A stretch of 64,000 bases of DNA. It comes from Somniosus microcephalus. Lineage: Eukaryota. This document shows positions 6,601 to 9,651 of this stretch, one piece after another (the first letter of the stretch is position 1; the number at the start of each line of letters is the position of its first letter). The translations under genes were made by a program, and so were the position numbers. Where the stretch lies: positions 49,228,001 through 49,292,000 of the forward strand of contig CM126209.1 in NCBI GenBank assembly GCA_052327205.1, read 5' to 3'. The notes beneath the pieces are model-generated. The model was not told the origin of the DNA. It was given only the letters and a program-made list of their open reading frames with translations, and did not search any database.

Positions 6601-7166
6601 TTACCGCCCCATCAGTCTACTCTCAATCATCAGCAAAGTGACTGAAGGTGTCATCGACAGTGCTATCAGGTGGTACTTACTCACCAATAACCTGCTCACC
6701 AGTGCCCAGTTTGTATTCCGCCAGGACCACTTGGCTCCAGACCTCAATACAGCCTTGGTCCAAACATGGCAAAAGAGCTGAATTCCAGAGGTGAGGTGAG
6801 AGTGACTGCCCTTGACATCAATGCAGCATTTGACTGAGTGTGGCATCAAGGAGGAGCCCTAGTAAAATTGAAGTCAATGGGAATCAGGGAGAAAATGCTC
6901 CACTGGCTAGAGTCATATCTGGCACAAAGGAAGATGGTTGTGGTTGTTGGAGGCCAAACATCTCAGCCCCAGGAAAATCGCTGCAGGAGTTCCTCAGTGT
7001 CGTGTCCTAGACCCAACCATCTTCAGCTGCTTCATCAATGACCTTCCCTCCATCATAAGGTCAGAAGTGGGGATGTTCGTTGAAGATTGCATAGTGTTCA
7101 GTTCCATTCTTAACTCCTCAGATAATGAAGCAGTCTGTGCCCGCATGCTGCAAGATCTGGACAACA

Positions 7167-8290
7167 CACCTCCATGACAGCTGGATCGGGTGGCTGGCGA
7201 AGGGCTGGGCTGTGCCTGGCAAGGTGACCAGGGTCAGGGACCTGCTCAATGGCGGAGGAGCAGGCTGGATGGCACCGGAGGAGCTGGCGCCGGAGGAGCT
7301 GGTGCAATGCCTGTCCTAGGCCAGCGTCTGGCGTGTGGCTGATGCCATCAGGATGCTGAAAGTGGCACTGGGCCCTGACTCCACTAGGTGTATCGAGGAG
7401 GCTCAAGCACATGGGGCGGTCCCGTCTGAACTGACCCCCATTCGGACGGAATTCCTCATCAGCGCGCGGCCCCGAAACCCCTCTCGGGAACCGGCGCCTC
7501 ACAACTTGAGCCGTCTCGGGGAAATGGCCTCCGTGCCATTTAGTTCTGTGCGGAGGGGTTTCCTGTACGGGCTGCTCCTGCACACTCTCCACTTTGTCAT
7601 CTTCGCCTGCCATCCGGACACGCTTTGGTGTGCAATCTTGCCGTCCGGCGGAGGCGGAGGTCCCCAATGGAGGGCTCTCTACGCGGGAGTCCTCCCTTTA
7701 TCTATTGGGGACTTGGCCTGGAGGGTGTTGCACGGAGCAGGCCCGTGCAATAAGCTTTGAAACAAGTTCACAGACTCCCAGGCCACTTGCCTTTTTTGCG
7801 GTCTAGGGGAGTCCGTGTTCCATGTATACATAGAAATGTGAGAGGTTGCAGCCCCTCTTCCAGTACTTGAAGGGGCTGCTCCTCAATTTTTGGCTGCACT
7901 TCAGTCCCACGCTCATGATCTTCGGTCACCCGGTGCGGAGGGGAGCGGGCGGGTCAGAGTACCTCCTCGTAGGACTGCTCCTGGGCCTGGCCAAAGTGGC
8001 CATTAATAGGTCCAGTCAGCGGGCAGTCGAAGGGGTTGTCCGGCCCGATTGCCTGCCTCTCTTCCGCAGCTATGTTCGCGCCCAGGTGGCCCTGGAGGTG
8101 GAGCACGCGGTGTCTGCCGGCACACTTGAGGCCTTCCGAGACCGGTGGGCGCCGCGGGGACTGGAGTGCATCATCACCCCGGCCAATGTGATTTTAATTT
8201 AACTTGATAAGTTTTAAAGTTTTAAAAATTAATTTAAGTTTTTAAGTTTCTTAACAGTTCATTTGTTCGGCCGGGGGAGCAGGAGGCTCC
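7167..8290 (+). mobile_element. 5'-truncated Tx1-clade (L1-group) LINE: ORF2 C-terminus plus 3' UTR
   Basis: GC/CpG-rich block. It encodes WRALY…GDLAWRVLHGA.PCN, then a CxxC…ESVFH…C zinc-knuckle (zf-RVT-like, about 7788-7840), and ends FRDRWAPRGLECIITPANVILI* (stop 8200-8202), followed by a T-rich 3' UTR. Confidence 0.85.
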
Positions 8291-8293
8291 ACT

Positions 8294-8526
8294 CGGATCT
8301 GTACAAACTCTCCACTGGGAACGCCGACCCTCATTTGCGTGAATTCCTGGAGACCCACTATCTGGATGAACAAGTGAAGATGATCAAGAAGCTTGGAGAT
8401 CACATCACCAACTTGAAGAGACTGGGACCCCTGCCTTGCAGGGAATGATGGCTTGTGACTTTGTACAAAGAGCTGAGACCTGAGCTCTGTAATGTCATTA
8501 ACTGTAAATAAAATGTAAAAAAAAAA
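8294..8526 (+). pseudogene. Processed ferritin (H/M-type) 3' fragment with AATAAA and poly(A), fused to the Tx1 3' end
   Basis: 8296-8427 translates to [44 protein letters not shown], matching ferritin helices C/D. There is no intron at DPH|L (8334/8335). AATAAA is at 8507-8512 and A10 at 8517-8526. Confidence 0.9.
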
Positions 8527-9651
8527 CCTGGACAACATTCAGGCTTGGGCTGATAAGTGGCAAGTAACATTCGCACCACACAAGTGCCAGGCAATGACGA
8601 TCTCCAACAGAGAGAGTCTAACCACCTCCCCTTGACATTCAATGGCATTACCATCATCGAATCCCCTATCATCTACATCCTGGGGGTCAACATTGACAAG
8701 AAACTTAACTGGACCAGCCACATAAATGCTGTGGCTACAAGAGCAGGTCAGAAGCTGGGTATTCTGCAGTGAGTGACTCACCTCCTGACTCCCCAAAGCC
8801 TTGCCACCATCTACAAGGCATAAGTCAGGAGTGTGATGGATTACTCTCCACTTGCCTGCATGAGTGCAGCTGCAACAACACTCAAGAAGCTCGACACCAT
8901 CCAGGACAAAGCAGCCCACTTGATTGGCACCCACCTTAAACATTCACTCCCTCCACCACCGACGCACCATGGCTGCAGCGTGTACCATCTACAAGATGCT
9001 CTGCAGCAACTCGCCAAGGCTTCTTCGACTGCACCTCCCAAACCCGCGACCGCTACCACCTAGGACAAGGGCAGCAGGTGCATGGGAACACCGCCACCTC
9101 CAAATTTCCCTCCAAGTCACACACCACCCTAACTTGGAAATATATCACCATTCCTTCATCGCTGCTGGGTCAAAGTCCTGGAACTCCCTCCCTAACAGCA
9201 CTGTGGGAGTACCTTCACCACATGGACTGCAGTGGTTCAAGAAGGTGGCTTACCATCCCCTTCTCAAGGGCAACTAGGAATGGGCAATAAATGCTGGCCT
9301 TGCCAGCAATGCCCACATCTGTGAATTAATTTTTAAAAAGTATGTTTGTCAAAGAACTCACTGTTATAAATCTACTATAAAGAACAATCAAAGATATGTT
9401 CATGCATTAAACAGAGATCGATGTTAATGGTATTTTTAGTTTAACAAATGAATTAGCAATTGATTTAATCAAATGCCAATAATTTGAATTGAATTTACTA
9501 TTCTGTTTTTTTTAATAAACACTTTTCACAAAGAAATTAGACTTTTTTAAATTGAACGAGCATTATTACTAAAGCATTTCATTTGATGGATATAAGTTAA
9601 ATATTTTTGATATTATTTTAGAACTAACAAATTGTTTCAAACTTTTTTACA

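What the first reader, a model, noticed from the sequence alone, without database searches (positions are those of the whole stretch)
7157..8537. Chimeric retro-insertion: Tx1 LINE 3' end fused to a spliced ferritin mRNA tail, mobilised as one unit
Seen in sequence: one TSD pair (ctggacaaca) encloses a 5'-truncated Tx1 ORF2, its stop codon and about 90 bp of 3' UTR, then ferritin codons DLYKL…LKRLG, a 3' UTR with AATAAA and poly(A). Established knowledge: vertebrate ferritin H genes have their last intron at DPH|LCDF, and it is absent here. Tx1-clade LINEs are often target-specific (U2 snRNA, tRNA arrays, other TEs), and L1-group elements perform 3' transduction. Inference: the junction lies near the natural Tx1 3' end and inside ferritin exon 3. 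The simplest source is a Tx1 copy sitting in a ferritin gene that reads through, splices the last intron and borrows the ferritin poly(A) signal. If such copies are numerous, this would be a LINE subfamily that targets ferritin or carries a captured ferritin tail and scatters ferritin pseudogene fragments. I know of no description of this. The alternative is a one-off template switch from ferritin mRNA to Tx1 RNA.
Basis: partly seen in the sequence, partly recalled or inferred. Interest (0 to 1): 0.82.

Follow-up and report, generated by a model that had tools for sequence, protein, structure and literature searches.

The report
LINE subfamily carrying a ferritin tail
This insertion is one copy of a jumping-gene family that has permanently taken the spliced tail of a ferritin messenger RNA as its own end and spread it around the genome, while close relatives sit in ferritin gene promoters and have captured ferritin tails on other occasions too.

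Summary
Observation confirmed, and it is not a one-off. The Tx1/ferritin junction has 297 exact 22-nt matches in G000 (control 0), different TSDs, full-length members with ORF1/ORF2, and is bridged by contigs under two organism labels. ORF2 is 48% identical to Xenopus Tx1. The array ferritin genes examined keep intron 3, so the tail came through RNA.

Instead, sister Tx1 copies sit beside the ferritin promoter CCAAT box (46 of 251 boxes). Two further chimeras join a Tx1 5'-UTR splice donor exactly to ferritin exon 2. The window family's tail groups with one of these, but its LINE body does not. Best reading: one fusion of a native Tx1 end onto an already spliced ferritin copy founded the subfamily.

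This is a 3'-end counterpart of SVA_F1 in an autonomous-type LINE; nine library searches found no description. New variant of a known kind.

The parts
6480..7166 (+). 5' part of the older host LINE (CR1/L2-like; clade label recalled, not tested) that was interrupted
   Evidence: weak RVT_1 match for 6911-7174, E 0.00098, below the curated cut-off
7157..7166 (+). 5' target-site duplication CTGGACAACA
7167..8202 (+). 5'-truncated, frameshifted Tx1-clade ORF2 C-terminus with its stop codon (8200-8202); matches positions 5906 onward of the 7283-nt family member in L089
8203..8279 (+). Tx1 3' UTR ending at the position of the native terminus (AAAAGAG in tail-less copies, read GGGAGAG in this family)
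8280..8294 (+). 15-nt family-specific linker; best read (inference) as five bases of ferritin exon 3 plus a 9-nt inverted piece of exon 3
   Evidence: 6-7 bp hairpin but fold z only -1.87
8295..8427 (+). spliced ferritin exon 3 end + exon 4 coding part; exon joint at 8334/8335; preceded by a copy-specific deletion of about 51 nt
8428..8516 (+). distal ferritin 3' UTR after the family-wide deletion of about 116 nt; AATAAA at 8507-8512
8517..8526 (+). poly(A) tail
8528..8537 (+). 3' target-site duplication CTGGACAACA
8538..9320 (+). 3' part of the interrupted host LINE

Best explanation
The insert is a 5'-truncated member of a Tx1-clade LINE subfamily (type A) whose fixed 3' end is a spliced, twice-deleted ferritin exon 3-4 + 3' UTR + poly(A). 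SHOWN: the fused unit retrotransposed many times; full-length members carry ORF1 and ORF2; related Tx1 copies lie, in both orientations and sometimes in tandem, 20-50 nt from the CCAAT box of three ferritin gene types in a large array; tail-less copies end in AAAAGAG(G) with no poly(A); two other chimeras (types B and C) have the layout Tx1 - Tx1 5' UTR - donor CAG|GT joined exactly to ferritin exon 2 - exon 3 - exon 4 - poly(A). INFERRED: B and C arose when a tandem Tx1 pair read through into a same-sense ferritin gene and the second copy's 5'-UTR donor spliced to exon 2. Type A then arose once, when the native end of another Tx1 of the same clade was joined at an AGAG microhomology to exon 3 of an already spliced B-lineage ferritin sequence, either by inserting into such a copy and reading through to its poly(A) signal or by a template switch between the two RNAs. 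The borrowed AATAAA/poly(A) became the priming end and the element amplified. The tail codes for nothing; it is a passenger or a better 3' end.
For: 297 exact junction matches, control 0; 25 of 29 other top tail loci carry the junction and the other 4 are truncated inside the tail; 16 of 20 fetched Tx1 3' ends carry the tail (query biased towards type A); 7 of 48 loci scanned give distinct 10-15-nt TSDs; junction bridged by contigs in 2 of 4 runs laid, labels D and E, different studies. Donor-to-exon-2 joints: 24 matches, 14 B + 10 C, control 0; unspliced donors CAG|GTGGGT in full-length copies; an independent B insertion (L164) and deletion variants B'. A, B, B' and orphan tails are separated from all sampled genes and C tails by a 99/96 branch. 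The type A 3' UTR and ORF2 end resemble tail-less copies L092/L098 more than B. Tx1 ends beside the CCAAT box: 5 sense + 41 antisense of 251 boxes, with 12- and 16-bp TSDs in two gene types.
Against: The founding locus of type A was not found, nor any intron-bearing parent of the A/B tail type, so shared ancestry of A and B tails could mean two captures from one lost or unassembled gene. The ORF2 tree is poorly resolved inside the A/B clade. No type A copy with a fully open ORF2 was seen among those fetched, so present autonomy is not shown. Donor and acceptor both end in CAG, so each B/C joint alone could be microhomology. Array amplification inflates the 46 promoter matches (11 lie inside C tails) and most B and C copies. 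No RNA spanning a donor-exon 2 joint at a source locus was seen.
Confidence: 0.6

Rival explanations
1. One reading: a Tx1 inserted into exon 3 of an intron-bearing ferritin gene, read through, spliced intron 3 and used the gene's poly(A) signal; that source has since been lost or is unassembled.
For: The junction is at the native Tx1 end and within about 10 nt of the exon 3 start; this clade does insert in the ferritin array.
Against: 0 matches for junction + intron 3 donor (exact pattern); no intron-bearing gene with the A/B-type 3' UTR; all array insertions seen are upstream of exon 1.
Confidence: 0.15
2. One template switch from an ordinary ferritin mRNA to a Tx1 RNA during target-primed reverse transcription made a full-length master, independent of type B.
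For: 4-nt AGAG microhomology and a possible micro-inversion at the joint; ovary-specific expression of a shark ferritin cluster is reported (10.1101/2024.09.09.611499, section 6), so the mRNA could be abundant in the germ line.
Against: The tail is nearer to B-lineage tails than to any gene sampled. None of the 20 dispersed or B-type ferritin copies aligned showed exon 1, which fits Tx1-borne tails better than free mRNA copies, although 5' truncation could explain this.
Confidence: 0.15
3. Type A is simply an internal deletion derivative of a type B element.
For: B' elements show such deletions at GAGA-like microhomology; tails are related.
Against: The Tx1 3' UTR and last ORF2 codons of A match tail-less copies, not B; tail-less copies fall among A in the ORF2 tree, with weak support.
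Confidence: 0.07
4. The copies are products of segmental duplication, or the junction is an assembly artefact.
For: Some groups share flanks (seven C4 copies; most B and C copies).
Against: Distinct TSDs, flanks and 5' truncation points; matches on each of the ten contigs reached by the first 100 listed; bridged in independent public contigs.
Confidence: 0.03

Closest known systems
SVA_F1 (MAST2-SVA) subfamily (PMC12593883, passages)
   Same: A single splicing or fusion event with a host mRNA piece founded a subfamily that now carries the piece as a standard part.
   Different: SVA is non-autonomous and gained a 5' exon; here an ORF1/ORF2-type LINE gained a 3' tail that supplies its poly(A) end, and capture from the same gene family recurred (at least B and C, plus the A fusion).
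L1/SVA 3' transduction and exon shuffling (PMC4859970, passages)
   Same: Read-through past the element's end to a downstream poly(A) signal; type C even keeps the source-site duplication inside its tail, as described for transductions.
   Different: Transductions usually keep an inner poly(A) and remain occasional add-ons; here there is no inner poly(A), the tail is spliced via a donor in a second tandem copy, and in type A it is fixed in hundreds of copies.
Target-specific Tx1-clade elements: Tx1L, Keno, Kibi, Koshi, Tx1-Mar (PMC4494074, passages)
   Same: Same clade by ORF2 similarity; tandem insertion and preference for multi-copy targets.
   Different: Targets named in those passages are snRNA or 5S genes, microsatellites, satellites and transposons; here the recurrent sites are promoter or 5' regions of protein-coding arrays (ferritin; probably C2H2 zinc-finger genes), and the preference is loose.
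U6-L1 template-switch chimeras and PIPSL (PMC4859970; PMC3747384, passages)
   Same: RNA-level joining of two sequences, then retrotransposition.
   Different: U6 chimeras place the cellular RNA 5' of the LINE and are separate events; PIPSL is one gene. Here the cellular RNA is 3' and the product stayed mobile.
Shark ferritin gene clusters (10.1101/2024.09.09.611499, passages and section 6)
   Same: Large tandem ferritin arrays, reported as ovary-expressed and conserved between two distant sharks.
   Different: The main text has no occurrence of Tx1, and the ferritin passage mentions no LINE-borne fragments; its supplements were not seen.

Membership tests
Tx1 clade (L1 group) LINE | ORF2 with APE-type endonuclease, RT and C-terminal zinc-binding region | tested here: met
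   Exo_endo_phos and RVT_1 over cut-off, zf-RVT weak, in the type C copy L067/L068; RVT_1 + weak zf-RVT in type A copy L088
Tx1 clade (L1 group) LINE | RT/ORF2 closest to Tx1 | tested here: met
   best named hit Xenopus Tx1 149 kDa protein, 48% over 99% of the query; no clade tree with reference LINEs was built
Tx1 clade (L1 group) LINE | separate ORF1 with zinc knuckle | tested here: met
   741-aa open frame with weak zf-CCHC in type C; homologous, broken ORF1 in type A copies L088-L090
Retrotransposed subfamily (not duplication) | shared 3' end, variable 5' truncation, distinct TSDs and flanks | tested here: met
Autonomous active LINE | a member with intact ORF1 and ORF2 | tested here: inconclusive
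   met for one type C copy (741 and 1306 aa stop to stop); not seen in the type A copies fetched; most of the 297 were not fetched
3' transduction | identifiable source locus with the element upstream of the transduced sequence | tested here: not met
   for type A; for B and C only the permissive arrangement was seen, not the exact source
3' transduction | source-site duplication or inner poly(A) inside the insert | tested here: inconclusive
   present in type C (promoter duplication inside the tail); absent in types A and B, whose native end has no poly(A)
Spliced capture (SVA_F1-like) | joint at a canonical donor and a host acceptor | tested here: met
   types B and C; not met for the type A joint, which is inside exon 3
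Target-specific Tx1 (more than 20% of flanks in one target class, criterion in PMC4494074) | one target class dominates the flanks | tested here: inconclusive
   41 of 297 type A junctions (14%) lie in C4:27.9-88.8 Mb, under 1% of G000; the fraction of tail-less copies at ferritin promoters was not measured
Processed pseudogene | mRNA copy alone within TSDs, no LINE part | tested here: not met
   the TSD encloses Tx1 and tail together; copies truncated inside the tail would look like processed pseudogenes (4 of 29)

The most novel reading that the evidence does not exclude
This Tx1 lineage prefers the promoter or 5' ends of multi-copy protein-coding arrays active in the germ line (ferritin CCAAT boxes, C2H2 zinc-finger gene starts), and its 5'-UTR splice donor plus lack of a poly(A) end make it capture the mRNA of its target again and again. 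Captured tails then found new subfamilies, and sense/antisense ferritin RNA from the array leaves ADAR-type A-to-G marks that are written back into the genome. That would be a LINE whose 3' end is renewed from its host target.
Probability: 0.4. Interest if true: 0.82.

Novelty: new variant of a known kind. Interest (0 to 1): 0.66.

Why it matters
It is a vertebrate LINE subfamily whose priming end is a host mRNA tail, with recurrent captures and intermediates still in the genome, so the steps from target choice to gene capture can be dated and tested. It suggests a class of Tx1 target (promoters of protein-coding arrays) not named in the passages read. It also matters in practice: at least hundreds of exon 3-4 ferritin fragments in such genomes are LINE tails (one search scores many as ferritin), and could inflate ferritin gene or retrogene counts in sharks.

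Tried and rejected
Source locus with the type A junction followed by intron 3: 0 matches. Intron-bearing gene with the A/B-type 3' UTR: 0 by pattern. Of the 40 scored DNA matches, 16 were aligned, 14 more are B-array copies, 4 were checked are array genes of another type (85%), and 4 were not examined; none examined was such a gene. L176 starts near the exon 4 border but has no acceptor. A tail-less Tx1 followed by an A-rich version of the linker: 0 matches, so the linker's origin remains inference. Hairpin at the junction: z -1.87, not convincing. A-to-G excess across type A tails: none (127 A>G against 142 T>C); it is confined to B'-type copies and, by inference, the A junction. ORF2 tree could not order A and B. 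Expression: no RNA holder listed; run X16 bridges the junction but its RNA status is only a guess, so transcription is untested. Earlier scan notes: none. Homolog search with longer lengths gave no clade name. Twelve planned stretches of G000 (other dispersed ferritin matches, upstream parts of B copies) were not read, which leaves the parent question more open.

Full report
What is in the window. The insert spans 7167-8527 between two copies of CTGGACAACA (7157-7166, 8528-8537) and splits an older LINE. It holds the broken C-terminal part of an ORF2 that aligns with Xenopus Tx1 ORF2, a 77-nt 3' UTR, a 15-nt linker, ferritin codons, distal 3' UTR, AATAAA and ten A. Host ferritin genes in G000 have four exons with a GT-AG intron at the point that is joined here (three gene types read in full).

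It is a family. The tail gave 1158 first-look candidates, 40 scored. Of the 29 other loci fetched, 25 carry one and the same junction and 4 are truncated inside the tail; all share a deletion of about 116 nt that removes the ferritin stop. A 22-nt pattern across the junction has 297 exact matches, control 0, a lower bound. Of 20 Tx1 3' ends fetched from 40 other scored matches (3739 candidates), 16 carry the tail; the query favoured such copies. Seven of 48 loci scanned gave distinct 10-15-nt TSDs; the rest gave none or only short or ambiguous matches, and 5' ends vary. Full-length members of about 7.3 kb exist (L089, L090), with broken ORFs. ORF2 of L088 is 48% identical to Xenopus Tx1. Non-CpG distance from the majority sequence of 16 copies is 2-7% (one body 12%), alike in body and tail, so body and tail aged together. 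Contigs bridge the junction in 2 of 4 public runs laid, under organism labels D and E and from different studies; this argues against misassembly and suggests more than one species. Transcription was not tested (see Tried and rejected).

The junction. Tail-less relatives end in AAAAGAG(G) without poly(A). The next 15 nt can be read as five bases of ferritin exon 3 after a shared AGAG, then a 9-nt inverted piece of exon 3; this is inference, and CpG decay blurs it.

Where the ferritin came from. A Pfam search shows a large intron-bearing ferritin array on C28, with further clusters on C11, C12, C28 and small contigs. No locus has the type A junction followed by intron 3, and no intron-bearing gene with this tail's 3' UTR turned up (4 of 40 scored matches not examined). 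Instead, related Tx1 copies lie at ferritin promoters. Of 25 array genes inspected, 2 have a sense copy at the promoter (12-bp TSD), 1 has one about 540 nt upstream and 1 an antisense copy. A third gene type has a sense copy with a 16-bp TSD, and two more genes have antisense copies with different truncations. Genome-wide, 5 sense and 41 antisense AAAAGAG ends lie within 12-45 nt of 251 promoter boxes. These numbers are inflated by array amplification, 11 of the 41 are inside type C tails, and most were not fetched to confirm a Tx1; five registers can be told apart. One type A copy (L029) also ends in a ferritin-promoter sequence.

Two more chimeras. Types B and C read Tx1 body - native end - Tx1 5' UTR - ferritin exons 2, 3, 4 without introns - 3' UTR - poly(A). 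The joint is exact: the 5' UTR stops at a CAG that is followed by GTGGGT in full-length copies, and ferritin starts at the first base of exon 2. There are 24 pattern matches, 14 B and 10 C, control 0. They use different Tx1 subfamilies and different ferritin types. Most copies share flanks, but L164 is an independent B insertion and L171-L173 are deletion variants. One C copy has open ORF1 and ORF2 frames. A cis route needs a same-sense gene downstream of tandem Tx1 copies: sense promoter copies exist, boxes spaced 7.3-7.5 kb apart suggest tandems, and head-to-head promoters occur (C28:36.536 and 36.549 Mb). The exact sources were not found.

How type A relates to them. A, B, B' and orphan tails are split from all sampled genes and C tails by a 99/96 branch, but the LINE part of A resembles tail-less copies rather than B. 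The simplest account is one fusion of a native Tx1 end onto exon 3 of an already spliced B-lineage sequence, by insertion into it or by template switch; Tx1 copies here often land next to one another.

Two side results. Five B'-like tails show strong A-to-G excess over T-to-C (35/4, 39/3, 25/3, 33/2, 19/2), against 7/9, 4/6, 3/3, 3/2, 1/6 in five other tails and 127/142 in pooled type A. This looks like ADAR editing of the RNA intermediate (established signature; cause inferred), and the five may descend from one or two events. Also, 41 of 297 junctions lie in C4:27.9-88.8 Mb, under 1% of G000. Copies there end at three recurring sites near promoter-like starts, and 12 of the 13 loci with zinc-finger linkers among 182 held are on C4. 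Different 3' ends at one site (L085 against L089) hint at independent insertion, but co-duplication is not excluded.

Comparison and novelty. It works like 3' transduction fixed into a subfamily, the mirror image of SVA_F1 (PMC12593883 and PMC4859970, passages seen). It belongs to the Tx1 clade, whose targets named in PMC4494074 (passages seen) are RNA genes, microsatellites, satellites and transposons. A shark genome preprint reports ovary-expressed ferritin clusters with no mention of Tx1 in its main text (10.1101/2024.09.09.611499, passages and section 6; supplements not seen). Nine library searches (listings only, apart from the five papers named here, PMC3747384 included) found no description of a LINE with a ferritin tail. 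Repbase and Dfam could not be searched and subscription papers are missing. Verdict: real, new variant of a known kind, interest 0.66.

Noticed in passing
L169-L173: Ferritin tails of the B' lineage carry a strong strand-specific A-to-G excess, like ADAR hyper-editing fixed by reverse transcription.
   Followed up: partly
G000:C4:27.9-88.8 Mb (L081-L091, L005, L009, L011, L020, L021, L024, L030; also L095, L099, L100 on other contigs): Type A copies cluster at recurring sites beside promoter-like starts; those on C4 lie among C2H2 zinc-finger genes, suggesting a second multi-copy target.
   Followed up: partly
L072:600-760 and window 7157-7166: A separate type A copy sits in the same host LINE family within about 3 nt of the window's site, with a different TSD and truncation; other pairs also share sites (L006/L028; L014/L027/L163).
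   Followed up: partly
G000:C28:45.3-49.0 Mb: Ferritin array genes of the main type are 99-100% identical in exons 1-2 and near-identical in the promoter across more than 20 copies, pointing to recent amplification or homogenisation; the array contains inversions.
   Followed up: partly
L067/L068 (G000:C28:45.436-45.445 Mb): A type C element with open ORF1 and ORF2 frames has one ferritin promoter type on its 5' side and another on its 3' side, suggesting recombination between two promoter insertions.
   Followed up: no
L005, L009, L011, L020, L021, L024, L030: Seven short type A copies share both flanks, so one insertion was probably multiplied with its host segment.
   Followed up: no
window 27586-28956 (-): Two long open frames of another CR1-like LINE reverse transcriptase (label recalled); no host gene frame of 170 aa or more in the window.
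   Followed up: no
L087 and L091, 3' flanks: Two copies end early in the tail and are followed by the same unrelated segment of about 370 nt with its own A run, possibly a further 3' transduction.
   Followed up: no
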